Part shown: piece after piece, positions 1 to 43,832 of the stretch
Position numbering within the stretch: position 1 is the first letter of the stretch
How the letters are laid out: every line of letters begins with the position of its first letter
Assembly (NCBI GenBank): GCA_963662655.2
Contig: CAXXTU010000002.1
Location: forward strand, 1,312,001 to 1,376,000
Source: Candidatus Cloacimonadales bacterium
Lineage (GTDB): Bacteria; Cloacimonadota; Cloacimonadia; Cloacimonadales; JAIOQZ01
Reading direction: 5' to 3'
Length of the DNA stretch: 64,000 nucleotides
The notes under the pieces: generated by a model
Database searches by the model: none
What the model saw: the letters and a program-made list of their open reading frames with translations, nothing else
Told to the model about the DNA's origin: nothing
Program-made: the position numbers and the translations under genes

Positions 1-2
1 TT

Positions 3-2476: not shown

Positions 2477-2477
2477 A

Positions 2478-3438: not shown

Positions 3439-3450
3439 GGAGATCAAGGC

Positions 3451-3657
3451 ATGTGCAAACTATTTCGAGAAGATCGAGGGTACTCACCTGTTGAAATCGC
3501 AGAAAGGCTTCCCTGTGGCAAGAAAACAGTCTATCGAATGATAAACAATGTCGAAGACCCTCTTCCAGCATACAGATTGAATGGAATGCTACGGGTTCTC
3601 GGCAAAGACCTGAATGTCTATATGGAAAATCATAGAGTGGAGCCCGAGAATGAGTAG
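3451..3657 (+). CDS. Excisionase-like HTH (HTH_17/MerR-type) DNA-binding protein
   Basis: YSPVEIAERL..KKTVYRMI..LPAYRLNGMLRV; SD AAGGAG upstream. Confidence 0.75.
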   Translation: MCKLFREDRGYSPVEIAERLPCGKKTVYRMINNVEDPLPAYRLNGMLRVLGKDLNVYMENHRVEPENE

Positions 3658-4102: not shown

Positions 4103-4570
4103 TGTATAAGTTCACGAAAGGCTTCAGGAATTACCTCGATGAGATCGCTTCTCTGACTCCCACCATCGAGCCGTTTGTTGACGACTCTCCTGCGAAAAAG
4201 AGTAAGCGAATCAAGCGCGTAACCGGTGAGGGTTGGAAGGCATTCAAAGAGTTCTCTGAGAGCTATTTCCCACACATCTTCAGGCTGAGTTTCTGCGATG
4301 ACCACGAGGAAATGTTCAATCTCATCGAACAACACACCGGGCTGATGGCAATCACAGGCTTTCGAGGATTTGGGAAAACTGTTTTAATGGGTGTTGTTTA
4401 CCCGATCTGGAAGGTCATCAAGGGCGAGCGATATGTTATCAATGTTGCGGCTGATATCGATCTCGCAAAGGAACGCTCTGAGTTCATGCTTTCCGAGCTG
4501 ACGAACAATCGGCGTCTGCTGGCGGACTTCCCTGATCTCGAACCAGATGGAACAGATGAAGAGAACTTCT
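4102..4570 (+). pseudogene. Terminase large subunit, N-terminal fragment truncated by ISL3
   Basis: F..SYFPH and Walker A GFRGFGKT of Mu gp28-like TerL; frame enters the IS inverted repeat after about 156 codons; no Walker B or nuclease domain follows. Confidence 0.8.
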
Positions 4571-5917: not shown

Positions 5918-6072
5918 ATAATATATACAGCGTTTTTTCATTTAAGGGATTAATGATGGTTAAAAATGCTGATTTTCGAATCGAGATTGTGTTCGTAAAC
6001 ATCGAAGGTTGGGTTCCGCAAGATCACATACCCCGTGTAAATGATCGACCGTAGTTTTCGGCTTCATTCACG

Positions 6073-6096
6073 AAAAAACCGCCCCGCGCGCGGAGC
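6073..6096 (-). terminator. Probable intrinsic terminator of the chemosensory operon
   Basis: Minus strand GCTCCG-CGCG-CGGGGC hairpin then GGTTTTTT, just after the stop at 6108. Confidence 0.5.
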
Positions 6097-6107
6097 TGAC
6101 GAACAAT

Positions 6108-7322
6108 TCAAAGCCTGATCATCACCAGCGAAAAATCGTCCTCGAAACTCTCGGAGCCATTCAGTTCAATCATCCGACTCCGGATACCGGCAAGCCGGTC
6201 GCTTCCCTGTCCCGCGCTCTCCCCGACGATCTTCACGAAGTCGTCGTACTCCACCATCTCGTCGGTAGCCTGATCGACGATTTCGTAGACTCCGTCGCTG
6301 AACACAAACAGCCTGTTCTCCTTGCCCACGATAACAGAAGAAGCCTGGAAGAGAATTCCGGGCATTCCGCCTATGACCATTCCCTTTGTCGTAAGCAAAT
6401 CCGTCTTCTTTTCGCTTTCGGAATCGCCGTGAATGAGAATCGCGGCAGGATGTCCTCCGCTCGCATACTTCAGCAGCCTGCTCTCCGCGTGAAAAACACC
6501 GTACCACATGGTGAAGAACTTGTCGCCCTGCTTCTCCATGGGAAAAGCCTCGTTCAATGCGCAAAGCACCTGATCCGGTTCCCGGAAATCCGTATTGGGC
6601 AGCGATTGCGACCGAAGCACATTCATCACGGACACTGAAAGTAGCGCAGCGCCGACTCCGTGACCGCATACATCGAGCAGATATATTGCATAGTGTTCGG
6701 CATCGAGGGGGTGGTAACCAAAGGTGTCGCCGCCCAGGGAGCTGGACGGAATAAATATCCAGTTCGTCTTCACCGGTTCCTCGATCTCCGGCGGCAACAG
6801 CGAAATCACGTATTCCGCGGCCTCACTGAGTTCCGCCGCAAGCGCTTGCCTGCTCTGAAGCAGCGCATTGTATGCCTCGTCTCTTTCCAACAGATGAATG
6901 TACCCGCTTGAATGATAACGAATACGCGCCAGAATCTCCAGCTTGTCCGGCAGCTTGACCATATAGTCGTTCGCTCCCAGTTCGAAGGCCTTGGCCTTGG
7001 TCTCGGGTTCTTCCTTGGATGAAAGCACGATCAACGGTATCCGCTTCGTTGCCGGATTCGCGCGGTAGAATTTGACCAGCGTCAGGCCATCGATCTTAGG
7101 CATAACCAGATCCTGCAGAATCACGGTTGGCTTGAATTCTGTAGCCTGCTTTATCGCCTGCGCAGGATCGTCGCAATGCGTGAACTCGATATCGCTCTGA
7201 TCCGCCAGCATCCTGCGAACGGTTTCGCCGATTATTCTCTGATCGTCCACAAGCAAAACCCTTATTGCGTGCGGATTCCAGGCTTTTTCTTCCTGTATGG
7301 CTTTTACGGTCTCTTCTCCCAT
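6108..7322 (-). CDS. Response regulator with REC plus SpoIIE/PP2C phosphatase domain (RsbU-like, WspR-type receiver)
   Basis: LLVDD, ILQDLVMP, ANDYMVKLPD receiver; LGGD, DVCGHGVGAAL, FSDGVYE, EDDFS PP2C motifs. Confidence 0.9.
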   Translation of the reverse strand: MGEETVKAIQEEKAWNPHAIRVLLVDDQRIIGETVRRMLADQSDIEFTHCDDPAQAIKQATEFKPTVILQDLVMPKIDGLTLVKFYRANPATKRIPLIVLSSKEEPETKAKAFELGANDYMVKLPDKLEILARIRYHSSGYIHLLERDEAYNALLQSRQALAAELSEAAEYVISLLPPEIEEPVKTNWIFIPSSSLGGDTFGYHPLDAEHYAIYLLDVCGHGVGAALLSVSVMNVLRSQSLPNTDFREPDQVLCALNEAFPMEKQGDKFFTMWYGVFHAESRLLKYASGGHPAAILIHGDSESEKKTDLLTTKGMVIGGMPGILFQASSVIVGKENRLFVFSDGVYEIVDQATDEMVEYDDFVKIVGESAGQGSDRLAGIRSRMIELNGSESFEDDFSLVMIRL

Positions 7323-7336
7323 TTCTTTCTCCAGCG

Positions 7337-30153: not shown

Positions 30154-32166
30154 ATGCCCAAAGGTATCGCGTCGATGCTCTTCTTATTGCTCCTAACAAG
30201 CTTTCTTCATAGCGACTGGCTGGAAAAACACACCACGCTTGTCGATTCGATCCAGGCGAACACCGATATCCTCGAAGATCGATTGCAGAAGCTTTCGATA
30301 CAAGACACCAATCTATCCCAGCAGGATATCCTGTCATACCTCCTGCTTTCAGGCTACCTGCCCGAGCTGGATTCCACGCAGGTGCGGGAGAATCTACATC
30401 AAGCGCTACAACTGAGTGTCGCGGAGAAGAACCCGGAAGCCCAGACGTTGGCTAGATGGGAAATGGCGAAATTCGAGCGGAGTCAACAAAACACTTCGCA
30501 GGCGCAATCGCTGTACCAGGAAGCAATCCGAATGGCGAGAGCCACACTTCCATCCCACCACATCGCGCTTCTGCATCTGGAAATTGCGTCCTTCTACGAG
30601 GAACAGAATATGATGCGCGCCGCCTCGCGGGAAGCGATGGAAGCCGCGCTGGAGATCGATACACTCGCTGACCGCGATTTAATGATCGAGGCCTACATGA
30701 AGCTGGGCGAGTACTTCGACAGACAGGGAATGATCATCAACAGCCTCGAGTATTTCGAGAAGGCGCACGCCCTCTCCAAGGAGGTTAGCGATCCGGTGCT
30801 CACAGCCGAGCTGGCAATACAGATCGGCAACGGATACCAGCGGAAGGCGAAATACGATATGGCGCTGAAGACGTACTTCGAGGCCATCGACAGCTTTTCC
30901 CGGGCAAATCGCAAAGACAAGCTGGCCATCGTGTATGATCAGGTGGCTTCCATATACAGAAAGCTGGGGGAAATCTCCAAGGCCATCGAGTACATGACCA
31001 ACGCGCAGATCATCAATATCAGCCTGCAAAACTGGGCGCTTGTGGGCGACAACTACCAGAACCTGGGCTTGCTTTACACCGATCTGAAGCAATCGCAGAC
31101 CGCTCTCACCTACCTCAAGAAAGCCCTCGCGACCTATCAGCAGGTCGACAACAAGGAAGGCATCGCGACAACGAGCAGCAAGATAGGCTTAACGCTCTCG
31201 GGCATGGGCGAATACGGGGAAGCGATCCAGTACAGCGAGGAATCGATCAAGGTAGCTCGGGAAGCCGGGCTGACCAACCAGATCACGTCGCTGCTCATCG
31301 ACCTGAGCCAGGTGTTGGCAACGGCCGGAAACAATGCCGAGGCAATTTCCGCGCTCAGTGAGGCATCCGTCGTTCTCCGGGAATCGGGTGGTAACAGGGA
31401 GTTTCAGTTGCAGATCGAGAAGAACATCGCTGAGCTGAAGGAGCGGCAAGGGGACATCCACAACGCGATTGCCCACTACCGGCAGGCGATGGATCTCCAG
31501 GACAAGATGTACGACGACCTCTCGCATCAGAAGCTCTCCGAGATGGAAGTGCTACTGGAAAGCTTCCAGAAAGAGAAGGAGATCGAGAAGCTCGAGAATG
31601 ACCTGACCGCCCAGCGGATCCAGGCCAAGCACGATAAATTCTATTATCAGACACAGTTGGAACTGGAAAACCTCAAATCGCGCAACCAGCAGATCGTCAT
31701 GCTTTCGATGGCTGTCATGGTTATTGGAGCGATTTCGTTTCTGTGGTACATTCTGGTAAGATTCCGCAAAGAGAAAGCCCTTCACAGCAAAATCAGCGAA
31801 CAGCACTTCGCACTCACCGACGCTTACAGCCAGCTTGAAAGAGCCCAGCACGAGCTGATTGAATTCGAGCGCCTCAAGTCGATGTCCGCAATGGCCGTCA
31901 CCATGAACCACGAAATCAACCAGCCGCTCATGATCATCCAGGGCAATCTGGACATGCTGAACATCTACCTGGAGAAGCACGACCTCGATTCCGAGCTCAC
32001 GCGGTTCACGCAACGAATCCAGGAGTCACTCCAGCGCATCATGGGGATCATGGAACGTATCGAGAACCTGGAGCGTGTGCAGTATGGCGATTACACGGAA
32101 GGAACCTCGATGGTCGATCTCGATTGCGCGAGCACAGACGATTTCGCTGAGCTGGACGAGTGTTAA
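30154..32166 (+). CDS. TPR-repeat membrane protein with C-terminal HisKA (DHp) domain and no HATPase domain
   Basis: Signal peptide, TPRs, TM helix, H-box TMNHEINQPL; protein ends about 80 aa later. Confidence 0.8.
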   Translation: MPKGIASMLFLLLLTSFLHSDWLEKHTTLVDSIQANTDILEDRLQKLSIQDTNLSQQDILSYLLLSGYLPELDSTQVRENLHQALQLSVAEKNPEAQTLARWEMAKFERSQQNTSQAQSLYQEAIRMARATLPSHHIALLHLEIASFYEEQNMMRAASREAMEAALEIDTLADRDLMIEAYMKLGEYFDRQGMIINSLEYFEKAHALSKEVSDPVLTAELAIQIGNGYQRKAKYDMALKTYFEAIDSFSRANRKDKLAIVYDQVASIYRKLGEISKAIEYMTNAQIINISLQNWALVGDNYQNLGLLYTDLKQSQTALTYLKKALATYQQVDNKEGIATTSSKIGLTLSGMGEYGEAIQYSEESIKVAREAGLTNQITSLLIDLSQVLATAGNNAEAISALSEASVVLRESGGNREFQLQIEKNIAELKERQGDIHNAIAHYRQAMDLQDKMYDDLSHQKLSEMEVLLESFQKEKEIEKLENDLTAQRIQAKHDKFYYQTQLELENLKSRNQQIVMLSMAVMVIGAISFLWYILVRFRKEKALHSKISEQHFALTDAYSQLERAQHELIEFERLKSMSAMAVTMNHEINQPLMIIQGNLDMLNIYLEKHDLDSELTRFTQRIQESLQRIMGIMERIENLERVQYGDYTEGTSMVDLDCASTDDFAELDEC

Positions 32167-32203
32167 TAAACGCGATGTAAACCACTTATTATCAGGAGAT
32201 AAC

Positions 32204-33010
32204 ATGCTTCGCACAACGTTTCTTCTCGTATTCTCGGCACTATCCATCTGTATCCTGGCCGCCAGCGACAAAATAGCCATCACCGGCTCCACAACCGTCT
32301 TCCCCATCGCGGAGAAATGCGCGGAAGCGTTTGAATCCGAGCATCCGGAAGTCGAATTCGAAATCGCCTCGACGGGATCGAGCGTGGGGATTTCGTCCAT
32401 CATCGACGGCAGCGCAGACATAGGAAACGCGTCGCGTCCGGCCAAGCAGAAGGAGATCGATGCCGCCAGAAAATCCCACATCGAACTGTTTGAGACGCCG
32501 ATCGCGATGGATGGCGTGGCCGTGGTGGTTCATCCCGAAAACCCGGTGACAAACATATCGCTGCAACAGCTTCAGGACATTTACACCGGCAAAATCACAT
32601 CGTGGAAGGCGCTCGGCGGCGAGGACGCGCCCATCCTGATCATCTCGCGCGATCCGTCGTCTGGTACCTTCGAGGTGTTCAACACGATCGTTCTCAGGAA
32701 AAAAGAGCTCTCGCCGACGGCGATTCTCGTGCAGGGCAATCAATCCGTTGCAGATGCGGTTGCCATGACGAGGTACGCGATCGGCTACATCGGTTTCGGC
32801 TTCCTGCAGAACGACCTGAAGGCTGTTTCGATCGAGGATATCGAACCAACCGACGAAACGATCCTCAGCGGCCACTACGCGATTTCCCGCAAGTTGTTCA
32901 TGTACACCGACGGCAAGCCGGAAAAAACCGTCGGGGAATTCATTCGCTTCATCCTCTCTCCCAAGGGGCAGCAGATCGTGCGGGAAACCGGCTTCCTGCC
33001 GGTGCGATGA
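32204..33010 (+). CDS. pstS: Phosphate ABC transporter substrate-binding protein
   Basis: GSTTVFP, GSSVGI, DIGNASR, SRDPSSGTFEVF, AIGYIG, YAISRKLFMY. Confidence 0.9.
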   Translation: MLRTTFLLVFSALSICILAASDKIAITGSTTVFPIAEKCAEAFESEHPEVEFEIASTGSSVGISSIIDGSADIGNASRPAKQKEIDAARKSHIELFETPIAMDGVAVVVHPENPVTNISLQQLQDIYTGKITSWKALGGEDAPILIISRDPSSGTFEVFNTIVLRKKELSPTAILVQGNQSVADAVAMTRYAIGYIGFGFLQNDLKAVSIEDIEPTDETILSGHYAISRKLFMYTDGKPEKTVGEFIRFILSPKGQQIVRETGFLPVR

Positions 33011-33011
33011 T

Positions 33012-33437
33012 TTACTGAATGGGCATGATATCCTGGGGCTTGTCGGGATCGATATCCACGTGGATAAATTGTTTGTCCCTGTAGATCACAATCCGCCGGA
33101 AACCTGCTTGCAGAAGCCCATAGACGATGCGGAAACGCAATGCGTGATCCGTGGCGGAGATGTCGGCAGCCAGTCCCTTCATGTGGCTGGAAGTGGGTGA
33201 ACCGCCGATCTCCCGGTTGTGCTTCTCGCATCGGTAGCCGGAATTGATCCTGAAAGGCACGCCGGCGATCTTCCTGGCGGCATCCAGCATCGAAACGAGT
33301 TGGGCTGATATATTTTGCGAGTTGCAGCAACGGCACTGAAATTCTTCTGCCCGGAAGTGTCGAATCGAACGCCAGTCCGGCGCTGTAATGAGATATGCTC
33401 CTCCTTCCGAAGAAAGAGGAGCTTCCGTTCTCGTCAA
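33012..33437 (-). CDS. Peptidase M15 (Zn D-Ala-D-Ala type) endolysin; start TTG 33437 or ATT 33389
   Basis: HFRAEEFQCRCC, INSGYRC..HN..GG...SSHMKGLAADI, FIHVD; the 197-aa ORF in the track overlaps a separate small gene. Confidence 0.85.
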   Translation of the reverse strand: MTRTEAPLSSEGGAYLITAPDWRSIRHFRAEEFQCRCCNSQNISAQLVSMLDAARKIAGVPFRINSGYRCEKHNREIGGSPTSSHMKGLAADISATDHALRFRIVYGLLQAGFRRIVIYRDKQFIHVDIDPDKPQDIMPIQ

Positions 33438-33610
33438 CGGGCCCACCCGAAGGCGGAGTAGAGAATCAGTTGAAGAATCTCCACCGCGCTGTCGTCGAGC
33501 TTGTTTTCGGTCTTCTCTGCTACATCCTTCAGCCAGTCTAGGAAAACGTCCACGATCACCTTGACGGGCAGAATTCTCATGATGTGCTTCATGATGCTTG
33601 TCCAATCCAT
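33434..33610 (-). CDS. 58-aa small protein next to the endolysin (holin/lysis-accessory candidate); not in ORF track
   Basis: AAGGAGG SD then ATG; MDWTSIMKHIMRILPVKVIVDVFLDWLKDVAEKTENKLDDSAVEILQLILYSAFGWAR. Confidence 0.7.
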   Translation of the reverse strand: MDWTSIMKHIMRILPVKVIVDVFLDWLKDVAEKTENKLDDSAVEILQLILYSAFGWAR

Positions 33611-33633
33611 GAATCCCTCCTTGCGAATACCGT

Positions 33634-34083
33634 TTATACGGTTACACTGATGTTCTTCAAATCGATGTACTCCTGGCTGATCAACTTGAGGTACACGCTG
33701 TCGTACTGCGGATACGGCAAGCCGCTCTCGCCCGATGCGAACGGCTGATATTTCTCGATGACGAAGATCACTTCCCAGGCGTTTGTCCCGGAGGCGTCGC
33801 CGTGAATCCTCAGCTTGATCGTCTCCTGAGCACGTAAAGCCTTGAAAATACCCATGGCGTCACGGTCGAGGTTGTAAACGACGAGCTCCGCTTGCATGCG
33901 TCCGTAGTCCTCGCAGGCCGCCTTCTCGTGTATCGAGATTTTGCCTGTTATCGACGAGGTATGAAAAATCCTGTCCTTTACCCAGGAGTATTCGAAGTTA
34001 CAATCTTCTTGTGAAAGGTCCCAACTGGAACCGTAGGATGTCCCGTAGAAGATGACGGGAGCTTGGGTGCCCCAATATGCCAC
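33634..34083 (-). CDS. Putative tail-tip/distal tail protein
   Basis: 149 aa, beta-rich, abuts the upstream gene with an SD; assigned by position only. Confidence 0.45.
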   Translation of the reverse strand: MAYWGTQAPVIFYGTSYGSSWDLSQEDCNFEYSWVKDRIFHTSSITGKISIHEKAACEDYGRMQAELVVYNLDRDAMGIFKALRAQETIKLRIHGDASGTNAWEVIFVIEKYQPFASGESGLPYPQYDSVYLKLISQEYIDLKNISVTV

Positions 34084-35859
34084 TTATGCCTCCTGTTTGA
34101 TTTCCGAAGTGAAGTTGACCAGATCGTCCACCTTGCGGACGTAACGCTCGTCCGCTTCTGCCGTGAGCTCCGTTTTGACGTTGATATAGGCGATATCGCG
34201 CCGGAAGGTGGAATCGAGGATATCGACGAGCTGTTCTTCGAGCGCGGGACTGATATCGGTGATCTGGTTGCTTGTGCTCGCATGTCTCTGTAGGGTGAAA
34301 TGATCCGTCAGGTTCACGTCGATGACCGAGTTCTTTACCTTGTAGGAGCTGCTGATGTTGTTCGCCGATATCTCCTCCGAATCGGATGACGTCCAGCTAT
34401 CCCAGTAGTTGATTCCCGACGACAGGCGTATTTGATTGACCTGATAATACTTACGCTGCTTTTCGACGCTCTGCCGGAACGCGATGATCTTCTCGTCGCT
34501 GTAAGAAACCGTGCTGTAACTCGTTCTCCGGAACTTCACGACCGAGTCGTCGATCAGGAATGTCAGCCTTAGAGCCAGAAGGAGTTCGCGGAACAGGGTC
34601 AGCATATCGGCGCTGTCGTTGTCCTCTTTGTTGCCCCTGCCGGCGTACATCAGACTGTATTGGCTCACCGCGAACCATTTGTAACTCATTGCGCTGGATG
34701 AATCCGTGTAGTCGGACGCGGCATCAAAAATCCCGGCAGTATCGACGGAGAGGATATTATCGTATTGCAGGAAGTAGATCGCGCTTTTCAGCAGGTAAAG
34801 CGCACTCACCCATCTTCTCGAACTGACGCCGACATCGTAGAAATACTCCGTCGTGCTGTAGTTCGAGCCCGAGAACAGCACCGGCGTAATGTTGCTCCAC
34901 CAGTCGGTTCGCGATGCTGCGAACGTGCTGGAGCCGGTGAGATAGCAATCGGAAGAGACTTGCTCCAGCGCGGTGAAGATGCTCTCGCAGTAAATACGCT
35001 TCAAGCCCTCGTCCTGCTCCTCGATACGGTGCACGCGGTAGAACCAATTCTCCTTACCGAGCGTGACTTCTTCGATGGCGATGGTGTCGTTGATTCGGAT
35101 GGCGTCATCGCCGTACCAGATAAACGACATGTCACACAGCACGGGGGTGCGGAGACTGTCGGTCTCCTGCTTGAGCTGGGAGATGTCCATCACCTGATCG
35201 GAGATATCCGTCTTCGTTGCCCAGAAATCAGAAGGCATTGTACCACTAACGGTTGCATCAAGGATGTTGAAGTGATCCTTGACCGTCATGTAACCGGCTC
35301 CACCGTAGTTTTTGTAACCAACGAGCCTTCTATGCGTGGACGATCGCGTGTACCAGAAATCGAAGATCGTACCGGTGAAGTGTCGCAGCGGAGCGTTTGA
35401 GACATCGCTCGTCGCTCCCACAAACAGATTTGACGTTGCCAGCGTTCCGGATGAAACGCACGACCTCGATTCCGAGAACACCGGGTTGTTGTATTGATCC
35501 CGGACGGCGAGGACGATCTCCGGTGTGGCGGAAATGTACACGCTGACGTTGTAGATTTCATCGGCATTGAGCTCCAGATCGCCGAAATCGTAATCGGTAT
35601 CCAGATAGCGGACGCGCAAGTAGAAGTTATCGCTTGCGTTGAGTATCTTCAAGCTGTACACGTCGTCACCATTCCCCATGCCCCAGACACATTGCTCGGT
35701 TGGTAGCAGCAACATGGACGACAGCCGGAAACGGCACTTGACGGGCGAAAGGATGTCTGTTGTTGCCAGCGTCGCGTTCGTATCGACATACACCGCCCCG
35801 TTGAACTTCATGCCGTTGTAGTGGTCTCTATAATGCCAGATTTTCACCTGTGCCATCAT
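34084..35859 (-). CDS. Putative tail tip/hub protein with N-terminal LamG/ConA-like domain
   Basis: Follows tape measure; NLFVGA..HFTGTIFDFWY resembles the LamG core. Confidence 0.5.
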   Translation of the reverse strand: MMAQVKIWHYRDHYNGMKFNGAVYVDTNATLATTDILSPVKCRFRLSSMLLLPTEQCVWGMGNGDDVYSLKILNASDNFYLRVRYLDTDYDFGDLELNADEIYNVSVYISATPEIVLAVRDQYNNPVFSESRSCVSSGTLATSNLFVGATSDVSNAPLRHFTGTIFDFWYTRSSTHRRLVGYKNYGGAGYMTVKDHFNILDATVSGTMPSDFWATKTDISDQVMDISQLKQETDSLRTPVLCDMSFIWYGDDAIRINDTIAIEEVTLGKENWFYRVHRIEEQDEGLKRIYCESIFTALEQVSSDCYLTGSSTFAASRTDWWSNITPVLFSGSNYSTTEYFYDVGVSSRRWVSALYLLKSAIYFLQYDNILSVDTAGIFDAASDYTDSSSAMSYKWFAVSQYSLMYAGRGNKEDNDSADMLTLFRELLLALRLTFLIDDSVVKFRRTSYSTVSYSDEKIIAFRQSVEKQRKYYQVNQIRLSSGINYWDSWTSSDSEEISANNISSSYKVKNSVIDVNLTDHFTLQRHASTSNQITDISPALEEQLVDILDSTFRRDIAYINVKTELTAEADERYVRKVDDLVNFTSEIKQEA

Positions 35860-36913
35860 AGCCTCCCCTGTTCATTCGTCTGCGCGCCGAGTCGATCCGC
35901 ATGATCGCCGTTTCAGCGTCTCCGCTCCCGCCTGCCGTCACGCTGAATTCTTTCTTGATCAGGTTGATGTTCAGCGCACGGAGTTGCGTGGAAATCCGGT
36001 CGAGCTTCTCCCCCAGGCTACCGGAGCTCCCGTGGTTGATTGCATGGAGAAGATCGAGATTCCCGCGCGCCGCTTGCGCGCTGATTACATACTCGCCGTT
36101 GCTGAGAAGCGCGGGGATCGAGTCGGAAGTCGAGCTTCCCGGGCCGGACACGTAACCGCCGTAGGCGTAGGTTTGCGCCTCGATTTCCGCGACGTTCGCC
36201 GCCGTTTTCGCTGTCGCGACCGCTGCCGCGGCCGCCGCGACCAGCGGCGCAGCCGATCCACCGTATTTCATGCCCCATGCGTATGCCGATTGCACCGCCT
36301 GAAGCCCGTCCAGGATCGCCTGGATCATGGACAGACGCTTCCAGGTCTCGAAGCCCTTGCGTCCATACGCGCGAGCGATGTCCGCAAGGTCGCCGAACAT
36401 ATCCGCGGTACCCTCCAGAAGCTCCCTCTGACGGGCCTGCTCCCGCTTGAGGTACTTCTGGCGAATCCCGTCGCGATCCTTCTCATAGTACTCCAGAATC
36501 GTGCGACGCGCTTCCTCGTGCTCCTCGTACATCGCGCGCTGCTTCTCGTACTCCTGCTGCTGGAGCTCGGTCCTGGCGATGATCAATTCCTGCGCTCCGG
36601 CCAGCGATTCCTTTGCGTACTGCTCCTGGGATTCCACCGCGCTGAGCAGCAACTCGTTGCGACTTCTCGCCTCGTCCCGCATCCACTGCACCTGCTGCTG
36701 ATGGCGTTCGCGCATATCGGAAGCCGAAGATTTTCCGGGAAGCATCTTGCGGGACGCTTCTCCCAGAGCCGACATCGAACCTCTGGTCGCATCGAGCGTC
36801 TTCTGAAGGTTCTTCAGCAGTTGATCGGTGCTGCTCAGCGAGTCGTTGAGCGTGCGCACGCTTCTACCGCCTTCAATGAAAATCTGGTTATCCCATGTTG
36901 TATTTCTTTTCAT
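35828..36913 (-). CDS. Short tail tape measure protein (361 aa)
   Basis: Long helical Q/E/R-rich region, Ala-rich segment, C-terminal YAYGGYVSGPGSSTSDSIPALLSNGEYV motif; SD before ATG 36913. Confidence 0.85.
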   Translation of the reverse strand: MKRNTTWDNQIFIEGGRSVRTLNDSLSSTDQLLKNLQKTLDATRGSMSALGEASRKMLPGKSSASDMRERHQQQVQWMRDEARSRNELLLSAVESQEQYAKESLAGAQELIIARTELQQQEYEKQRAMYEEHEEARRTILEYYEKDRDGIRQKYLKREQARQRELLEGTADMFGDLADIARAYGRKGFETWKRLSMIQAILDGLQAVQSAYAWGMKYGGSAAPLVAAAAAAVATAKTAANVAEIEAQTYAYGGYVSGPGSSTSDSIPALLSNGEYVISAQAARGNLDLLHAINHGSSGSLGEKLDRISTQLRALNINLIKKEFSVTAGGSGDAETAIMRIDSARRRMNRGGYDGTGENLAL

Positions 36914-37633
36914 TCTGTCCTCGTTCCTGCTTTTCCGCCAGCGTCTCCTGCTGGATTCGTTCCGCGAGCGAATAGAGCTCCATGAACCACCCGGGCTGAG
37001 CCCGTTGGTCACCCGGCCACGGATACCGCACTCCACCGCGTGAATTCTCGATCAGATAGCTCAATACAAGCTTCACGGCCGGTAACATCCTCGGAAACGG
37101 AGTTCCATCTCTAGCTCTCTTGCACGTCTCTCTCGCGAGACAGTTCCCACAGAAGGTATGATCCCCGGCGAAGCTGGTTATAACGCCCTCCCAGCGATCT
37201 CCGGAGAAGATCATCAATCGGAGGGCGTGCGTTAGTTTTTTCGGATCGCCTCGCGGTTCCGGCGATACTCCTCTTCCATCGAGCCGATCTCTTCCCAGAG
37301 AAGCTCCAGAACATCCTCCCTCAGCAGATTGACGCTCTCCAGCGTCACCGAGCGCTCAAATACCCAGCCCTCGCGGTCTACGCGACGGCTCACACCGTCC
37401 AGCTCTCCGCCCAAAGCCAGCACAACCTTCGCCAGGCGGAGGGTTTCAGGCTGGACACCTTCGTATACCGGTTCTTCTCCGTTGAAGGACATCTTGCCCA
37501 TGAATGGCAGCAGCGCGTCCCGGTCCAGGGGCCGTAAATGACGGATGGTCGCGATCCGCTGACCGTCGAGAAAGACGTCACGCGTCAGAGCGGCCCCGTG
37601 ATCCTCGAAACAGTTCTTGATTTTATCGCTCAT
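36888..37633 (-). CDS. Tail assembly chaperone gpGT-like, produced by -1 frameshift at 37241-37235
   Basis: A AAA AAC just before the gpG-like stop; the -1 frame runs without a stop into ORF 36888..37217. Confidence 0.75.
37232..37633 (-). CDS. Tail assembly chaperone gpG-like (133 aa)
   Basis: Between tail tube and tape measure; ends ..IRKN at the slippery site; start MSDKIK just after the tube stop. Confidence 0.75.
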   Translation of the reverse strand: MSDKIKNCFEDHGAALTRDVFLDGQRIATIRHLRPLDRDALLPFMGKMSFNGEEPVYEGVQPETLRLAKVVLALGGELDGVSRRVDREGWVFERSVTLESVNLLREDVLELLWEEIGSMEEEYRRNREAIRKN

Positions 37634-37641
37634 ACCGCCCC

Positions 37642-38598
37642 CTACGTAACGATGATCTTTACGGAGGGATTCGTATTGTCCGCCATGAGCTGCACGGTTG
37701 CGGAAAACGCGAATATCTGCCTCTCGGGATCGGCCGGATTCACCGCGGTGATCTTGCCGTTGGTTTCGACGACCCACTGATGCGTTCCGTCCGTGAGTGT
37801 GAAATCGACGTTGCCATAGGTAACATCGCTGGAAAGCAGCTCATCCTCGAACCAGCCGCTGGCGGAGTCGTAATTCGTATCGAAGGTCGCCTCTCCGCTG
37901 AAACCTTCGATGAGCTCCCGCCGCTTGGTGAATGAATTCTGGTAAAGCGCGTTCTCGTTGATGAAGCGATTCGCCAGTGAGAGGCTGAATGAATTGAAGC
38001 TGCTATAGGCGGCATCGAAGAGATTGATCGAGTGGATGTCGCCAACCAGGAAAGGCTTTACGTGCGGCGTCGCCACCATTCCATAGGCTGCGTAATCGCC
38101 GGATGACAAATCGACCTCCGTCTCGATGCTTTTAACCCTGAACACCGCTTCGAAGGTGACCGTGCCGTTGCTTTCGCCGGTGATGTTCATGCTCTCCAGG
38201 ACGCATCCCGTGGCGACATTGCCCTTTGCATCGTCCGTGAAATATTGGTGAATCTCATACGAGAAGGGGGTGTTGCCCGATTGAACCTGGTATGGCGAAG
38301 CGCTCTTGGAGAAAAGCCCTTGCAACATGATTGCGTGCAGGTGGGAAAGCTCGCCGCTGATCGTGACCGCTCCCCCTTTCCTGCCGGCGAGAACCTCGGA
38401 GTGGTAAGGCTCGATTTTCCCTGTCTTGGCACGTACGGTGATTGCTTCACGCGTGGGCTTCATCACAATCGAGTTCGCCAGAATGATATCGATCGAGCTG
38501 TAGTCTCCCGCATAGCTTCCATAACCGCTTCCCGTACCGGATTCCTGTTCCTTGAACAGAGTAATCAAATACCTGTTCCCATATCGATATGCGCACAT
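37642..38598 (-). CDS. Major tail tube protein (non-contractile type)
   Basis: 318 aa, beta-rich (ATGCVLESMNITGE, FSLSLAN); canonical position; no sheath gene present. Confidence 0.7.
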   Translation of the reverse strand: MCAYRYGNRYLITLFKEQESGTGSGYGSYAGDYSSIDIILANSIVMKPTREAITVRAKTGKIEPYHSEVLAGRKGGAVTISGELSHLHAIMLQGLFSKSASPYQVQSGNTPFSYEIHQYFTDDAKGNVATGCVLESMNITGESNGTVTFEAVFRVKSIETEVDLSSGDYAAYGMVATPHVKPFLVGDIHSINLFDAAYSSFNSFSLSLANRFINENALYQNSFTKRRELIEGFSGEATFDTNYDSASGWFEDELLSSDVTYGNVDFTLTDGTHQWVVETNGKITAVNPADPERQIFAFSATVQLMADNTNPSVKIIVT

Positions 38599-38612
38599 AG
38601 TTCCTCCTTTGG

Positions 38613-39065
38613 TCAGTCGTCGTCTCGCGTGTCGAGAATCTGCATTCTGAAGCAGATCTTGCGGATGTTGAGATTGTTGTAGATGCCCGGCTCATGGTAG
38701 TCCGTCGCTTCGCCGCGAACCTCACCCTTTTCGATGGAAACCGCTTCCAGATTGTGGATGTATTCGGCAATGCCGACCGCACCTAGTACCTTGTCGATGA
38801 TCACGTCCCCAAGGACGTTCATCGTAATGACCCGGTTCTGTCCCGGGCGATGATATAACCAGACATTGATCTCGTAGGAGTAGCGAATCTGGCCGCCGGC
38901 CAACATCACGTATTCCGGCTGATCTCCATCCTGAACCAGAACCGCAGGCAGTTTCCTTCCGATGCGATCGATGTCGTCCGGAAACTCTCCCACATACTCG
39001 AATAAATCCTCGCTGCTGAACAGGGTTTTAATCCAGTTGATTACTTCGTTTTGATATGCGTGCAT
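38613..39065 (-). CDS. Putative tail terminator/completion protein
   Basis: KLPAVLVQ motif, 150 aa, between adaptor and tube. Confidence 0.55.
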   Translation of the reverse strand: MHAYQNEVINWIKTLFSSEDLFEYVGEFPDDIDRIGRKLPAVLVQDGDQPEYVMLAGGQIRYSYEINVWLYHRPGQNRVITMNVLGDVIIDKVLGAVGIAEYIHNLEAVSIEKGEVRGEATDYHEPGIYNNLNIRKICFRMQILDTRDDD

Positions 39066-39074
39066 TGGTTCACC

Positions 39075-39812
39075 TCATCGTTTGATTCGCGTTGAATAGT
39101 TGATGTTCGCTCGATACTTGTCTACGGCGCCGTCGAGAGTCGTATCCAGATTGACGGCCTTGGACGCCGCGTCGAAGTGGTCCTTGAACACGCGATGGTA
39201 AAACTCGGCCTTCGTCCAGTACATCTCTCGGCCCATCGCATTTGCCAGATCGGTGTAGATCAGGTGCAAGGAGAGGTAGTCGCTGCAGATGTCGAATAAA
39301 TCGGGATTGGCAACAATATCCAGGAGGACTTTTCCGGAGGCTTCGTCCACGGAGTAACCCTGCGTCGAGAGAAGATTCTCCAACCTCCTGCCGATGATCT
39401 TCTTCGCCATGGCGATCTTGTCGAGCCAGTTGGCGCTAACCGTATAGGTTGCGTGAACGTCTGTTGAATCCAGCTCCGCATGGTTTCCGTTTCCCGAAAC
39501 GTCCAGAGCGGTCAACTCCACGCCCTCATCGCAGTGATACTCGGCGATCCTCGTTCCGTCAATATCGTAGCCGATGATCTTGAAGATAAATGTCTTCTCG
39601 GGCAATACCCAGATTTCATCGACATCCACCGATCTCATACTTCCCACCGGATTGAACCACTCGATACGTCTGATCTCGGGAGGAAAATAGAGCCTGTGCC
39701 CTGTGGAACCGCTGTAGCATTGGTGAACCGATCCCCCGGCAAGGATGTTTACTTCCGCATCGATTCGGGCAATTGAACTGGGCGTCGATAGAACAACGTT
39801 TTCCCAAGCCAT
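39075..39812 (-). CDS. Putative head-tail adaptor protein
   Basis: Position after capsid and cement; helical C-terminal half ending ..KAEFYHRVF. Confidence 0.5.
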   Translation of the reverse strand: MAWENVVLSTPSSIARIDAEVNILAGGSVHQCYSGSTGHRLYFPPEIRRIEWFNPVGSMRSVDVDEIWVLPEKTFIFKIIGYDIDGTRIAEYHCDEGVELTALDVSGNGNHAELDSTDVHATYTVSANWLDKIAMAKKIIGRRLENLLSTQGYSVDEASGKVLLDIVANPDLFDICSDYLSLHLIYTDLANAMGREMYWTKAEFYHRVFKDHFDAASKAVNLDTTLDGAVDKYRANINYSTRIKR

Positions 39813-39833
39813 AGATGATCTCCTTTTGATTGC

Positions 39834-39855
39834 GGGGAGAGGTTTCCCTCTCCCC
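39834..39855 (-). promoter_or_regulatory. GNRA-capped hairpin after the capsid/cement genes (attenuator or mRNA stabiliser)
   Basis: GGGGAGAGG-GAAA-CCTCTCCCC, perfect 9-bp stem, no U tract. Confidence 0.6.
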
Positions 39856-39863
39856 CGATTTCA

Positions 39864-40319
39864 CTATGCGAGTGTGTGCAGAAACGCGTCGATTTTCTGC
39901 GCTGAATTGCTGGTCGTGGTCGTGTAATGAAGCTGCACGTAGGGGCGGTCTCGCAGCAATCCTTCAGGGATTGCGATGGCAGTGATGAGATCGCCGGCGC
40001 TGAAGGAAATCGCTCCATGGGTTGTATCTTTATACAAGAGATGGAAGCAGGCATTATTCAGCCAGCCGTTGGCGCTGTTCTTGAATGGAGGTGCGGCGCT
40101 GGCTGCATTTGCCGTTGCGGAGCATTCCAACTCGATTAGCAACACCTCGTCCGTCGCAATGGTTATCGCCGTGTTCGCGTATACGCGCAGCTCGACAATC
40201 CCTCCGCTGTCTCCCGCATAGCAGATATTGGTCGAGTCCATACCCGTTCCGTCGAATACGGCCTGGGCGTCCGAAAGCTTCATGTCCTCTTCTACAAGGT
40301 ATCCGTAAAATTTGCTCAT
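39864..40319 (-). CDS. Capsid cement/decoration protein (BPP-1 Bbp16-like)
   Basis: LSDAQAV..STN, AGDLITAIAIP..RPYVQLHYT..KIDAFL; directly after the major capsid gene. Confidence 0.65.
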   Translation of the reverse strand: MSKFYGYLVEEDMKLSDAQAVFDGTGMDSTNICYAGDSGGIVELRVYANTAITIATDEVLLIELECSATANAASAAPPFKNSANGWLNNACFHLLYKDTTHGAISFSAGDLITAIAIPEGLLRDRPYVQLHYTTTTSNSAQKIDAFLHTLA

Positions 40320-40328
40320 GGCTTGCTC

Positions 40329-41288
40329 CTAAATGGTTTCACTGGACGAGATGTTTTCTTCCAGAACAACAGGAATTCCATTCCAGCGTTCGATCAGCTT
40401 GTTGTAATCGGTATCCGCGCTCGAAACCTGCATTTTGCTTTCTTTGAGTTCCCAAAGCAGCCTGCGGCCGGTTCGATTGCAGTAGATGAATGTGTCACTC
40501 ACGCTTCCGCGAACCATGTCAATCAACTTGTCCATGTTGCCGGAAGTAGGCTTCTTCCCTGTCGCATCCTGGATGGAAACGTAAGCCGCGACGTTATCGG
40601 TTGTCGCGACAAGCAATCCCATGTAGGCTTCGTATAGGGCCTGATATACGGGCTTCACGGCGCCGGTTGAAGTATTGACGACAACCATCACCGGAGTTCC
40701 GTTGTTCAACGGGCGCACCGTTATCAGATGACCTTCCGCGAAGGCGTTCTCGTTGAAGAGACCGCAGCATGTGCCGGGTTTCCAGCGCACGGCGAGGATT
40801 GTGGTCCTGCTTCCCGAAGCTCCGGTCGCGTCGATAGTATTGCTGTTTGCGACAGCGTGCTGGCGGAGACCGGTGAATCCCTCCTCGTTGCCGAGAGATG
40901 TGTCGGTTCCGTAAACAAGCTGGCGCGCCGCCGTCTGGCCGAGTCCCTCGACAAACGAGGGAAGCTCATCGGCAAAGTACTTCTCCACGCCACCCGGGTA
41001 ACTCTCGCAGATCGCCTTGTCTTCCTGCTGGATGTCGGTGAGAATCTTGAGATCGGATTGTTGCACGATGTCCTCGGTGGTATGCGGAACGATGGAGCCG
41101 TTCACGGCACGGAAACCGCCGCCCGGGAGTTCCGGCTTGATTTTGAACTTGTGAAAGATGCCATGACTCGCCTTGATGAACGGCATGGTTGAGAGAATTC
41201 CGGATTCTCTGATCAGAGAATCGATGATCGATGTCTGGTTCGGTACGTTGTATGCCGCAGCCAGTTTCATGAGTGTTGCACTTGCCAT
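40329..41288 (-). CDS. Major capsid protein (HK97 fold, epsilon15 gp7/BPP-1 Bbp17-like)
   Basis: IIDSL..SGIL..MPF, LP..FRAVN, DKA, FVEGLGQ..LVYG..FTGL, IDATG, WNGIPV..I...E. Confidence 0.85.
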   Translation of the reverse strand: MASATLMKLAAAYNVPNQTSIIDSLIRESGILSTMPFIKASHGIFHKFKIKPELPGGGFRAVNGSIVPHTTEDIVQQSDLKILTDIQQEDKAICESYPGGVEKYFADELPSFVEGLGQTAARQLVYGTDTSLGNEEGFTGLRQHAVANSNTIDATGASGSRTTILAVRWKPGTCCGLFNENAFAEGHLITVRPLNNGTPVMVVVNTSTGAVKPVYQALYEAYMGLLVATTDNVAAYVSIQDATGKKPTSGNMDKLIDMVRGSVSDTFIYCNRTGRRLLWELKESKMQVSSADTDYNKLIERWNGIPVVLEENISSSETI

Positions 41289-41855
41289 TTATCCTCCAAA
41301 TGCCTTGAAAACTTCAGTTAAATCCGTCCGCTTGCAGGGCTTGATTCCCTGAATCGGGCGAGCGCTGTCGTAGGTTTGTTCTTTCTCGAAGTATCCTGCC
41401 TTGAGATACGGCTTGATCGTCTGCAAGTTGTGATTGATGTCATCGGGAGAAAGAGGTTCCGTATCCGTTCCGAACCGGAAATCATCCCGGATCCGAAGCA
41501 TCTTCATGTACCGGGGATCATCCTCCGGAACTTCAAAGAAACGCTCGTACTCCTCCCAACGCTTTCTCCTGGATTCCTGAACCTGAACCCTCAGACCCTC
41601 GAGTTCTTCCTGAAGCGCTTCGACGTTCAGGTCTTCGAATCCCTTGAGCTTCCGCTTGTAACCTTCGAGCTCCAACTGCAGCTCCCGGACCTCCTCACGA
41701 AGTTCGTTTCGCTGAGAAATGACTTCGTCGAAGCGTGATTTGGGTATCTGGTTTTCGCTGGAAGCTGTCTGGATTTCGTCGAGAACCAGTTGCAGATCGT
41801 TCAGCAGATCGTTGTTCTCAATGGCGTGTTTCGCCAGGATATCCGTTAATGTCAT
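41289..41855 (-). CDS. Putative capsid scaffolding protein
   Basis: IPKSRFDEV motif plus coiled coil, immediately upstream of the capsid gene; SD GGAGG. Confidence 0.75.
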   Translation of the reverse strand: MTLTDILAKHAIENNDLLNDLQLVLDEIQTASSENQIPKSRFDEVISQRNELREEVRELQLELEGYKRKLKGFEDLNVEALQEELEGLRVQVQESRRKRWEEYERFFEVPEDDPRYMKMLRIRDDFRFGTDTEPLSPDDINHNLQTIKPYLKAGYFEKEQTYDSARPIQGIKPCKRTDLTEVFKAFGG

Positions 41856-42099
41856 TGTCCCTCCATTTGCTATCGCTGTTTTGTCAGCGTGTATTGGCGT
41901 GTGATCCGTTCGATAGGCACAGCGGTGCCATTAGTCTTACGGCCAAGAACTAAAGGTGAACTTGAATAGTTTGAAACGAAGCGCTCAGTACAACGTGATC
42001 ATGGGAATGATTCGCTAGCTGAGTCGCGTAAGATGTCATCATTTTTTACGGTGCATGCCACCGGTTTCACAAATTTGTCCGAGCTACATACTCACCGGC

Positions 42100-42128
42100 A
42101 ATATATACGATACCTAAATAATTGTCAA
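42100..42128 (-). promoter_or_regulatory. Sigma70-like promoter for the virion module
   Basis: TTGACA (42128-42123), 17-nt spacer, TATATT (42105-42100). Confidence 0.7.
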
Positions 42129-42290
42129 GCAAAAAGTTATAAATTTATATCTCTTGTTATTTCTTAGATTTTCCTTTCCGAACAACAGTTACTTTTCGTT
42201 TCGTTTAACAAATCTAACCGCCGTACATGAACCTTTTTTTATTGACGTAAATGAATCCGTTCGTCTTTACATGCTTACAAAGGAGAAACG

Positions 42291-43832
42291 ATGTTCGGGA
42301 AAACTTTATCATACGCCATTCAGGGGATCGATGCCGATCTTGTGGCTGTCGAAGCAGATATCAAAGGGGGAATGAGCAAGTTCTCTATAGTCGGGCTTCC
42401 ATCCAATTCCGTCAAGGAGAGCCGTGATCGCGTTTCAGCGGCGATCAAGAACAGCGGATACAAGTTCTTTTCGTACAACTACACGGTCAATCTCGCGCCT
42501 GCCGATCTGCGCAAAGAAGGCGTATCCTTCGATTTACCCGTCGCGGTTGCGATTCTTGCCGCTTCGCATCAAATCAAATCCGAGCATCTTGAAGACACGG
42601 TAATCGTCGGAGAGCTTTCCCTAGATGGAGAAGTACGACCCGTTCGCGGGATCCTCCCCATCGCCATGAGCTGTAAACACGACAAGATAAAGAGGATTAT
42701 CGTGCCCCGTGAGAATGCGGAAGAAGCGGCCATTATCGACGAGCTAGAGGTGTATCCCGTCGATACATTGACCGACACCGTCGACTTTCTGCAGGACTTC
42801 CTCCAGATCGAGCCTGCGAAGGTCGATCGGGAGAAGATATTCTCCAACTTGAACATCAGCATGGTGGACATGTTCGATGTGAAAGGGCAATTCCATGTGA
42901 AGCGAGCTATGGAGATTGCCGCTGCCGGCGGTCACAACCTTCTGATGATTGGCCCTCCCGGATCGGGTAAAACCATGCTCGCGCGTCGCCTACCAACAGT
43001 TTTACCGGATTTGAGTCTCGAAGAAGCGCTTGAGACCACCAAGATTCACTCTGTTGCCGGCCTGATTGCAAACAACGGCAAAGGTGTCATATCGGAGCGA
43101 CCCTACCGCTCGCCGCACCACACGATTAGCGACATCGGCCTGATCGGCGGAGGAAGCTATCCCAAACCGGGCGAAGTATCGCTCGCGCACAACGGAGTGC
43201 TCTTCCTCGATGAGCTACCCGAGTTCAAGAAATCCGTTCTGGAAGTATTGCGTCAGCCGCTCGAAGACGGAGTCGTCAACATCACCCGCGCCACGCAGAG
43301 TCTCTCCTTTCCGGCGGAATTCATGATGGTGGCCTCGATGAACCCATGTCCATGCGGGTACTACGGCAACTCCATCCCGGGGCACACATGCTCATGCCCC
43401 ATGACAAGCATTCAGCGATACCGCTCCCGGATTTCCGGTCCGCTTCTCGATCGCATCGACATCCATATCGAAGTACCAGCGGTCAAATACGAAGAGCTGA
43501 GCTCTCTGCCGACCGGCGAGAAGTCCGACATGATCCGACAGAGAGTTAACAAGGCCCGAAACATACAGTTGAAGCGCTTCGAGGGCACCAGCGTTTTCTG
43601 CAACGCACAGATGAACTCGAAGATGATCCGCAAATATTGCGCGATCGACGATCAGGGAAAATTACTGCTGCGTAAAGCGGTCGACAGGCTGGGACTCTCC
43701 GCCAGGGCGTTCGATCGTATCCTTAAGGTTTCAAGAACCATTGCCGATATGGACGGTTCTGATCATATTAACAGTTCCCACCTCAGCGAAGCTGTCCAAT
43801 ACAGAAGCATGGACAGGAAATTTGTGGAATAA
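42291..43832 (+). CDS. comM: YifB/ComM Mg-chelatase-like AAA ATPase
   Basis: [71 protein letters not shown]. Confidence 0.95.

What the first reader, a model, noticed from the sequence alone, without database searches (positions are those of the whole stretch)
33012..42128. Intact head+tail+lysis module with no terminase, portal or integrase: candidate new gene transfer agent or domesticated virion system
Seen: about 13 tightly coupled minus-strand genes (scaffold, capsid, cement, adaptor, terminator, tube, chaperone G/GT, 361-aa tape measure, two tail proteins, 58-aa protein, M15 endolysin) with no evident nonsense or frameshift damage. The boundaries are clean: the endolysin stop is 1 nt from the pstS stop, and the other end is a promoter region shared with comM. 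No integrase, repressor, replication, terminase or portal gene, and no remnants of them. By eye the base composition resembles the host genes, unlike the AT-richer Mu-like prophage. Known: GTAs are host-regulated virion gene sets, often split over several loci, and RcGTA has a short tape measure; decaying prophages usually leave debris. Inference: a domesticated particle whose packaging genes lie elsewhere, or a module that borrows or jams a helper phage's portal and terminase.
Basis: partly seen in the sequence, partly recalled or inferred. Interest (0 to 1): 0.88.

Follow-up and report, generated by a model that had tools for sequence, protein, structure and literature searches.

The report
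Split domesticated phage, candidate gene-transfer agent
A family of little-studied anaerobic bacteria (Cloacimonadales) keeps one host-adapted set of phage head, tail and lysis genes and keeps the matching DNA-packaging genes elsewhere on the chromosome; this is the layout of a gene transfer agent, a particle that carries host DNA between cells, although no particle has been observed.

Summary
Thirteen full-length minus-strand siphophage head, tail and lysis genes lie here, with no packaging, integrase or replication gene beside them.

The missing packaging genes exist: an orphan terS-terL-portal trio 380 kb away (C2:1,733,634-1,736,683) among host genes. The two loci are halves of one ancestral phage operon. 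In 22 of 31 viral loci with this portal family, homologues of the module follow the portal; in two family genomes the trio sits beside the module.

The capsid gene occurs in 8 of 8 genomes of the host family but only 10 of 232 in the phylum. dN/dS is 0.06-0.13, the tree agrees with the host tree at supported nodes, and the tape measure is short (317-361 aa against 610-899 in intact relatives).

It is very likely domesticated (about 0.9) and most likely a gene transfer agent of independent origin (about 0.6).

Against or open: no expression or particle data; TerS here keeps its helix-turn-helix; Neck1 is lost; this genome lacks three fibre-like genes its congeners carry; comM adjacency is not conserved. 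Borrowing a helper's terminase is not needed.

The parts
42133..42146 (-). AT-rich dyad just upstream of the -35 hexamer; possible regulator site (inferred)
   Evidence: 1 mismatch to a 14-bp palindrome, the best of 7 genome sites with up to 2 mismatches; conserved in G001-G003
42100..42128 (-). sigma-70-type promoter TTGACA-17-TATATT of the head-tail-lysis operon
   Evidence: CTTGACA with a -10-like hexamer conserved upstream of the scaffold gene in G001-G003 and G005, CTTGACA also in G004 and G007
42049..42063 (-). conserved leader dyad CGGTG-N5-CACCG (operator or RNA hairpin; no covariation)
   Evidence: present in G000-G003, G005, G006 (6 of 8 family genomes); the 16 matching loci of 139 are all these genomes, none viral; no Rfam match
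41874..41889 (-). conserved hairpin-like element just before the scaffold ribosome-binding site
   Evidence: 5 of 8 family genomes
41289..41855 (-). capsid scaffolding protein, 188 aa
   Evidence: PF06810 E 1e-5 and phrog_194; 23-62% to family orthologues
40329..41288 (-). major capsid protein, 319 aa, epsilon15/BPP-1 gp7-like family
   Evidence: PF20911 E 5e-23, NF045672 over cut-off, PDB 3j4u/3j40; 64-91% in 7 of 7 family relatives
39864..40319 (-). probable cement/decoration protein, 151 aa
   Evidence: position after the capsid gene; phrog_427 E 0.003; homologues in phages; function inferred
39075..39812 (-). probable head-tail adaptor, 245 aa
   Evidence: no family hit; homologue at the same position in related phages; function inferred
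38613..39065 (-). probable tail terminator, 150 aa
   Evidence: homologue between Neck1 and tube in related phages; function inferred
37642..38598 (-). tail tube protein, 318 aa (non-contractile; no sheath gene)
   Evidence: PF18906 E 9e-5, phrog_290 E 5e-7
37232..37633 (-). tail assembly chaperone G, 133 aa, ending in a slippery A-AAA-AAC (37241-37235)
   Evidence: slippery site in 6 of 7 family genomes printed, with an open -1 frame into the next gene
36888..37217 (-). T part of chaperone GT
   Evidence: homologues in phages
35828..36913 (-). short tape measure protein, 361 aa
   Evidence: PHROG tape-measure hits E 3e-16; 317-361 aa in the family
34084..35856 (-). tail tip protein, 590 aa, probable N-terminal laminin-G-like lectin domain
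   Evidence: Atlas look-alikes scoring 0.96-0.97 are viral clusters carrying PF13385 in 39-98% of members; 19 relatives among 1.84 billion representatives
33634..34083 (-). second tail protein, 149 aa
   Evidence: 42-81% in family orthologues; no family hit
33434..33610 (-). 58-aa lysis-cassette protein (holin role not shown)
   Evidence: phrog_402 E 7e-6; 40% homologue beside an M15 gene in the Mu-like remnant
33012..33437 (-). peptidase M15 endolysin, 141 aa, SSH..D..HVD zinc motif intact
   Evidence: PF08291 E 1e-21; motif read from the sequence
32075..33010 (+). host pstS-like gene, conserved right flank
   Evidence: PF12849; adjacent in G001 and G003
42291..43832 (+). host comM-like gene; adjacent only in this genome
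   Evidence: PF01078/PF13541; amt and pilin-like genes lie upstream in G001-G003 instead

Best explanation
A vertically inherited, domesticated siphophage late operon of one Cloacimonadales family, split into a head-tail-lysis locus (this window) and a terS-terL-portal locus (G000:C2:1,733,634-1,736,683), working as a gene transfer agent. SHOWN by sequence: both loci exist, each behind its own conserved sigma-70-type promoter; they come from one phage type; they are single-copy, lack integrase and replication genes, and are under purifying selection. INFERRED: (1) in some cells both operons are switched on by a host regulator acting near the conserved leader dyads; (2) scaffold, capsid and portal build a prohead; (3) TerS-TerL cuts the unexcised chromosome and fills heads by a headful mechanism; (4) a short non-contractile tail is attached; (5) the M15 endolysin lyses the producer; (6) particles bind kin through the lectin-like tail protein and deliver DNA, which recombines with the help of the host competence machinery. 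Because the loci are far apart and cannot excise, a particle cannot carry the whole system.
For: Capsid gene in 8 of 8 family genomes and 10 of 232 phylum genomes, one orthologous copy each. A capsid gene from another prophage of this genome is in 0 of 5 relatives. The portal orthologue is in 6 of 8 family genomes and a terminase of either of two types in 7 of 8; G002 (90% complete) also lacks the orthologue of the flanking gene. In G004 and G007 terS-terL-portal directly follows the module. In 22 of 31 viral loci found with the portal profile, module homologues follow the portal (many loci are near duplicates). TerL Walker A (GGGKT), Walker B (GFDE) and nuclease aspartates are intact, with a weak PBSX-family terminase hit. 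dN/dS is 0.08-0.13 for head-tail, 0.06-0.12 for packaging and 0.03-0.065 for host core genes. The concatenated head-tail tree matches the rpoBC/ribosomal tree at supported nodes. No integration, head, tail or replication hits among 60 ORFs flanking the module in G001 and G007, only one lone HTH gene. The tape measure is 317-361 aa against 610-899 aa in six unbroken viral loci. ComEC is in 11 of 11 genomes searched (also outside the family, so permissive only). BhGTA is a precedent for a structural cluster with a lone distant terL (PMC9662315, passages).
Against: No expression, particle or transfer data exist. TerS here keeps an N-terminal HTH (PF13384 over cut-off), whereas RcGTA TerS appears to lack one (PMC6854486, passages). 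Neck1 is lost in genera g1 and g2 and appears broken in G005; its loss blocks assembly or lowers infectivity in several phages (PMC11784142, passages). This genome lacks the fibre-like genes of G001-G003, and no endolysin is seen in the G004/G007 locus. Between G004 and G007 dS of tail and packaging genes is 1.5 to saturated against 0.37 for core genes, so parts were exchanged or evolved fast, although two flanking host genes show the same. Two unrelated TerS-TerL types occur in the family. dS is near saturation in most pairs, the capsid-only tree is unresolved, and purifying selection is also known in ordinary defective prophages (recalled). The portal call rests on profile hits in 3 of 19 homologues, phrog_533 E 7e-6 and gene order; there is no PDB sequence match and no structure model.
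Confidence: 0.6

Rival explanations
1. Site-primed transducer: TerS still recognises a pac site in or near its own gene, so the unexcised locus starts headful series that mobilise mainly the chromosome downstream of the portal (like lateral transduction) rather than random DNA.
For: HTH retained in TerS of G000, G001, G003 and G006. Host genes downstream of the portal have dS 2.1 to saturated in both G001/G003 and G004/G007, above core values.
Against: The dS signal is uncontrolled: those genes are variable secreted-protein types, and pstS shows the same. In G004/G007 the TerS candidate lacks about 33 N-terminal residues.
Confidence: 0.14
2. DNA-filled killer or otherwise non-transducing particle (PBSX-like phagocin, decoy, or controlled DNA release by lysis).
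For: Neck1, needed for DNA delivery in some phages, is lost. Tail-tip and fibre genes vary most. The lysis cassette is swapped (M15 in g1, GH108 in G006).
Against: The tail is short and non-contractile with no sheath gene; known tailocins keep no head or packaging genes (recalled). Capsid, portal and TerL are among the most conserved parts.
Confidence: 0.13
3. Anti-phage or helper-dependent module that interferes with, or borrows from, co-resident phages.
For: The genome holds several prophage regions, and the module shares endolysin and 58-aa gene homologues with them.
Against: It has its own cognate portal and terminase. The four PF04860 portals of the resident prophages are a different family. 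No resident prophage has a capsid like this one.
Confidence: 0.06
4. Ordinary defective prophage, slowly decaying or repeatedly acquired from related temperate phages.
For: The locus differs between genera; genes were lost piecemeal (fibres, Neck1, lysis). G011 of another family carries what looks like a prophage of this type (56% capsid, short contigs, GC3 about 0.3).
Against: 8 of 8 presence in single copy across genomes whose RpoB differs by up to 19%; no broken gene in this genome; conserved promoters and frameshift site; no viral-contig capsid inside the family clade of a 54-sequence tree; best viral capsid identity 46%.
Confidence: 0.07

Closest known systems
BhGTA / VSH-1 of Brachyspira (Brachygtaviriformidae)
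   Same: Structural and lysis cluster without terL, a single conserved terL elsewhere, co-diversification with the host and no synteny between species (PMC9662315, passages).
   Different: Different phylum. Here nearly every gene has clear viral homologues, the portal travels with the terminase, and no transfer has been shown. Sequences were not compared directly.
RcGTA of Rhodobacter (Rhodogtaviriformidae)
   Same: Vertically inherited siphophage-type head-tail set, short tail with a short tape measure (about 216 residues by the segments given; 49-nm tail; PMC7296036, passages), several loci (PMC11841831, part 1 of 5).
   Different: RcGTA keeps terS and terL in the core cluster (PMC6854486), has a stopper protein and a TerS without HTH. 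This system has an epsilon15/BPP-1-type capsid, an SPP1-type portal, no recognised stopper and, in this genome, an HTH TerS.
Uncultured siphophages of IMG/VR (for example L056, L086, L090, L094)
   Same: Homologous terL, portal, scaffold, capsid, adaptor, terminator, tube and chaperones in the same order.
   Different: They are contiguous, carry minor-head (PF04233) and Neck1 genes and 610-899 aa tape measures, and are at most 51% identical.
PBSX-like defective phages of Bacillus (recalled)
   Same: Host-retained phage that packages host DNA; TerL has a weak TIGR01547 PBSX-family hit.
   Different: PBSX is one locus with its own repressor and a contractile killing tail (recalled); none of that is seen here.

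Membership tests
Gene transfer agents (functional class) | Head, tail and packaging genes of phage origin in the host chromosome | tested here: met
Gene transfer agents (functional class) | No linked integrase or replication genes | tested here: met
   (tyrosine integrases by family search; other recombinases only through flank ORF inspection)
Gene transfer agents (functional class) | Vertical inheritance and purifying selection | tested here: met
   local exchange in g2
Gene transfer agents (functional class) | Genes spread over several loci | tested here: met
   380 kb apart here; on separate contigs or distant positions in G001, G003, G005, G006; adjacent in G004 and G007
Gene transfer agents (functional class) | Particles package host DNA without preference for their own genes, in pieces too small for the whole system | not testable with these tools
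   needs particles
Gene transfer agents (functional class) | DNA is delivered to and recombines in recipients | not testable with these tools
   ComEC present is only permissive
Gene transfer agents (functional class) | Host-controlled expression in a subpopulation | tested here: inconclusive
   conserved promoters and dyads; shared-operator test negative; regulator not identified
RcGTA-like (Rhodogtaviriformidae) | TerS without an N-terminal HTH | tested here: not met
   PF13384 over cut-off in this genome; the G004/G007 candidates lack the N-terminal segment
RcGTA-like (Rhodogtaviriformidae) | terS and terL inside the core structural cluster; stopper gene present | tested here: not met
RcGTA-like (Rhodogtaviriformidae) | Homology to the RcGTA gene set | tested here: not met
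   no GTA-named model among Pfam or NCBIfam hits; capsid is PF20911/NF045672; no direct pairwise comparison was run
BhGTA-like (Brachygtaviriformidae) | Homology to BhGTA capsid, endolysin and TerL; Brachyspira host | not tested
   host is Cloacimonadales by the titles of relatives; sequences not compared
Inducible temperate prophage | Integrase, repressor, replication and packaging genes in one element | tested here: not met

The most novel reading that the evidence does not exclude
A gene transfer agent domesticated independently in Cloacimonadota from an epsilon15/BPP-1-capsid siphophage that integrated with its late operon cut at the minor-head gene. That left the permuted order scaffold...tail, terS-terL-portal seen in G004/G007; the packaging half later moved away in other genera. 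The family holds TerS with an HTH (g1, G006) and a truncated TerS (g2), so it would be a natural series for the step from site-directed to random packaging.
Probability: 0.3. Interest if true: 0.92.

Novelty: new variant of a known kind. Interest (0 to 1): 0.8.

Why it matters
How common gene transfer agents are outside Alphaproteobacteria is an open question, because they resemble remnant prophages and arose several times (PMC11841831). This is a sharply defined candidate in a largely uncultured phylum, from a different capsid and portal lineage, with both loci identified. It can be tested without culture, by long-read sequencing of capsid-protected DNA and by proteomics. The TerS variants within one family also allow a direct test of the proposal that loss of the DNA-binding domain makes GTA packaging random.

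Tried and rejected
Shared operator at both promoters: AAAnTT at -18 occurred at only these 2 of 155 sigma-70-like sites, but the pattern was chosen after the fact. Cross-validation ranked the other promoter 58 of 146 and 18 of 146. Rejected.

comM as part of the system: adjacent only in this genome.

Link to the Mu-like prophage in the window: absent beside amt in G001, and no such genes beside the G004/G007 locus.

Orphan minor-head gene: the 6 PF04233 hits in this genome are taken to lie in or beside other prophage regions by position; the L056 minor head has no tblastn hit here.

Sequencing runs: no RNA holder listed. Two contig sets of one sample, possibly the source of the assembly, show flat depth and no joints; contigs cannot show excision or expression.

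Codon usage: does not separate the module from all prophages. Rfam on the leader: nothing; the leader stems are invariant, without covariation.

Metagenome scan: 23 loci, all 48% or less, phage-like where long enough to judge. Atlas on the g2 TerS candidate: leads under 0.9 only. No structure model was obtained, so folds are unconfirmed. Earlier-finding look-ups were empty.

Literature: 'gene transfer agent' with 'Cloacimonad' or 'Cloacimon' gave 0 papers. Searches listed 2 of 4 and 1 of 1 papers, off-topic by title and start of abstract. Subscription papers and supplementary tables of GTA surveys were not seen and could list this locus.
Full report
OBSERVATION. Thirteen minus-strand ORFs run from 41855 to 33012 with gaps of -29 to +51 nt and lengths matching their orthologues. 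Profiles identify the scaffold, an epsilon15/BPP-1-type capsid (PF20911, NF045672; PDB 3j4u, 3j40), the tube, the tape measure and an M15 endolysin. The rest are named by position and homology to phage genes. The chaperone gene ends in A-AAA-AAC with an open -1 frame, and this site is present in 6 of 7 family genomes printed. The endolysin stop is 1 nt from the pstS stop. Each module protein has one close copy in the genome; only the endolysin, the 58-aa protein and the tape measure have distant homologues in other prophages. Titles of relatives name the host order as Candidatus Cloacimonadales.

THE MISSING HALF. A terminase family search (PF03237) of the genome gave one hit, 380 kb away. It belongs to a three-gene unit: terS (C2:1,733,634-1,734,056; phrog_309 E 3e-14), terL (1,734,047-1,735,288; phrog_2 E 2e-41) and a 458-aa portal (1,735,307-1,736,683; phrog_533 E 7e-6; PF05133 in 3 of 19 aligned homologues). 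It lies between an ABC transporter gene and secreted-protein genes. TerL motifs are intact. A conserved sigma-70-type promoter precedes terS in G000, G001 and G003.

THE TWO LOCI BELONG TOGETHER. In G004 and G007 the portal orthologue (50-51%) with a terL and a small upstream gene follows the tail genes within about 2 kb. Of 31 viral loci found with the portal profile, 22 show scaffold, capsid, neck or tube homologues of the module downstream; the other 9 end at the portal or show only the minor-head gene. Many are near duplicates. In 21 of the 22 a minor-head homologue lies after the portal; this is the gene missing at the split. The g2 order (head-tail first, packaging last) is a circular permutation of the phage order, which suggests integration through the minor-head gene followed by loss of the early genes (inference).

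DISTRIBUTION. The capsid query matched 10 of 232 phylum genomes: all 8 of the family (64-91%), G011 (56%) and G119 (36%). A second copy in G004 (32%) lies in a prophage with a 989-aa tape measure. The portal matched 6 of 8 family genomes. This TerL type matched G000, G001, G003 and G006, and a second type G004, G007 and G005 (3 of 5 searched). G005's terS-terL also sits among host genes at a contig end. G002 (90% complete) lacks the trio and the orthologue of its flanking gene, so its absence says little. As a control, the capsid gene of another prophage in this genome matched 0 of 5 relatives. No tyrosine integrase lies within 100 kb of either locus here, and 60 flanking ORFs in G001 and G007 gave no virion, integration or replication hits.

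SYNTENY. pstS flanks the endolysin in G000, G001 and G003; G002 has the next genes of the G001 neighbourhood. amt and two pilin-like genes lie upstream in G001-G003 but about 40 kb away here, so comM adjacency is a local rearrangement. Other genera use other sites.

EVOLUTION. By Nei-Gojobori counts, dN/dS is 0.08-0.13 over the head-tail genes in 7 genome pairs, 0.06-0.12 over the packaging genes in 3 pairs (a fourth is saturated) and 0.03-0.065 over 10 host genes; the least saturated pair, G002/G003, has dS 0.58 against 0.42. Trees of five head-tail proteins and five core proteins agree on the genus clade, its internal order (support 86/58 against 100/93) and the g2 pair. Deeper order is unresolved, G005 has no rpoB, and the capsid-only tree is unresolved. 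In a 54-sequence capsid tree the family forms a clade with six unnamed proteins (support 0.85) and no viral-contig sequence. Against clean descent: dS between G004 and G007 is 1.5 to saturated for tail and packaging genes against 0.37 for core genes, though two downstream host genes behave alike; two terminase types occur; and the endolysin is M15 in g1, GH108 in G006 and unseen in g2.

STREAMLINING. The tape measure is 361 aa in g1, 319 in G006 and 317 in g2. The gene at that position is 610-899 aa in six unbroken viral loci and 333-410 aa in three loci whose terL or portal are fragmented; two more are cut by contig ends. Neck1 is intact only in G006 within the family. This genome has also lost three fibre-like genes that G001-G003 carry; homologues of two lie in its Mu-like remnant (52% and 26%), so incipient decay or use of those genes in trans cannot be excluded.

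REGULATION. The scaffold leader holds a promoter, an upstream dyad, a CGGTG-N5-CACCG dyad (6 of 8 family genomes, no viral locus) and a hairpin before the ribosome-binding site (5 of 8). A common operator for the two loci failed cross-validation. No regulator was identified.

MECHANISM. The anatomy gives everything needed for a DNA-filled, short-tailed particle and nothing needed to excise or replicate. Long retention of capsid, portal and motor argues that filled heads matter. With no phage genome to pack, the substrate must be the chromosome or co-resident elements (inference). I put domestication with paired loci at about 0.9 and a gene transfer agent at about 0.6. The main rivals are site-primed regional transduction (0.14) and a non-transducing killer or decoy particle (0.13). 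TerS bears on this: it has an HTH in G000, G001, G003 and G006, while the 108-aa g2 candidate lacks about 33 N-terminal residues of its G005 homologue (that segment looks HTH-like by eye only, with no family hit). RcGTA TerS appears to lack this domain (PMC6854486, passages).

COMPARISON. It works like BhGTA in layout (PMC9662315, passages) and like RcGTA in its short tail (PMC7296036, passages). It fails the RcGTA-like tests made here and was not compared by sequence with BhGTA. The functional criteria of a GTA (PMC11841831, part 1 of 5) could not be tested. Neck1 loss is a concern (PMC11784142, passages). PMC7947584 on headful packaging in GTAs was seen only as a listing. Searches for a GTA or such a locus in Cloacimonadota found nothing on topic, within the limits of the library and without supplements.

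VERDICT. A real, family-wide, domesticated and split virion system; an independently derived GTA candidate, function unproven. Interest 0.8.

Noticed in passing
window 1-5820 and G000:C2:345,000-367,000: The Mu-like prophage at the window start ends in a terL fragment at an ISL3. What looks like the rest of terL and the late genes lies about 950 kb away beside another copy of the same IS, suggesting an IS-mediated split.
   Followed up: partly
L014 14800-20000; L015 1-4000; G000:C2:1,305,400-1,316,600: Related Mu-like prophage genes sit next to amt in G000, G002 and G003 but not G001: an ancestral insertion or a hot spot.
   Followed up: no
G000:C2:3,384,000-3,419,000 (L073): Another phage structural region with a 338-aa capsid-like gene, a 1042-aa tape measure and nearby integrases; its capsid gene is in 0 of 5 relatives.
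   Followed up: partly
G000:C2 near 2,000-7,700; 477,000-491,000; 2,744,000-2,756,000; 3,309,000-3,315,000: Several related prophage copies with M15 genes 53% identical to the module endolysin and PF04860 portals.
   Followed up: no
L016/L017 17100-18300 (G004, G007): Two lipoprotein-like genes and a small antisense membrane-protein gene lie between the tail genes and terS, and no endolysin is seen in the locus.
   Followed up: no
L020 3927-5862 (G011): Two tandem tail-tube paralogues in the G011 element.
   Followed up: no
L012 12748-13038: A tandem repeat of about 75 bp directly downstream of the portal gene in this genome, seen as a repeated translation.
   Followed up: no
L034 11259-16207; L038 5557-10517: Host genes downstream of the portal have unusually high synonymous divergence in two genome pairs; uncontrolled.
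   Followed up: partly
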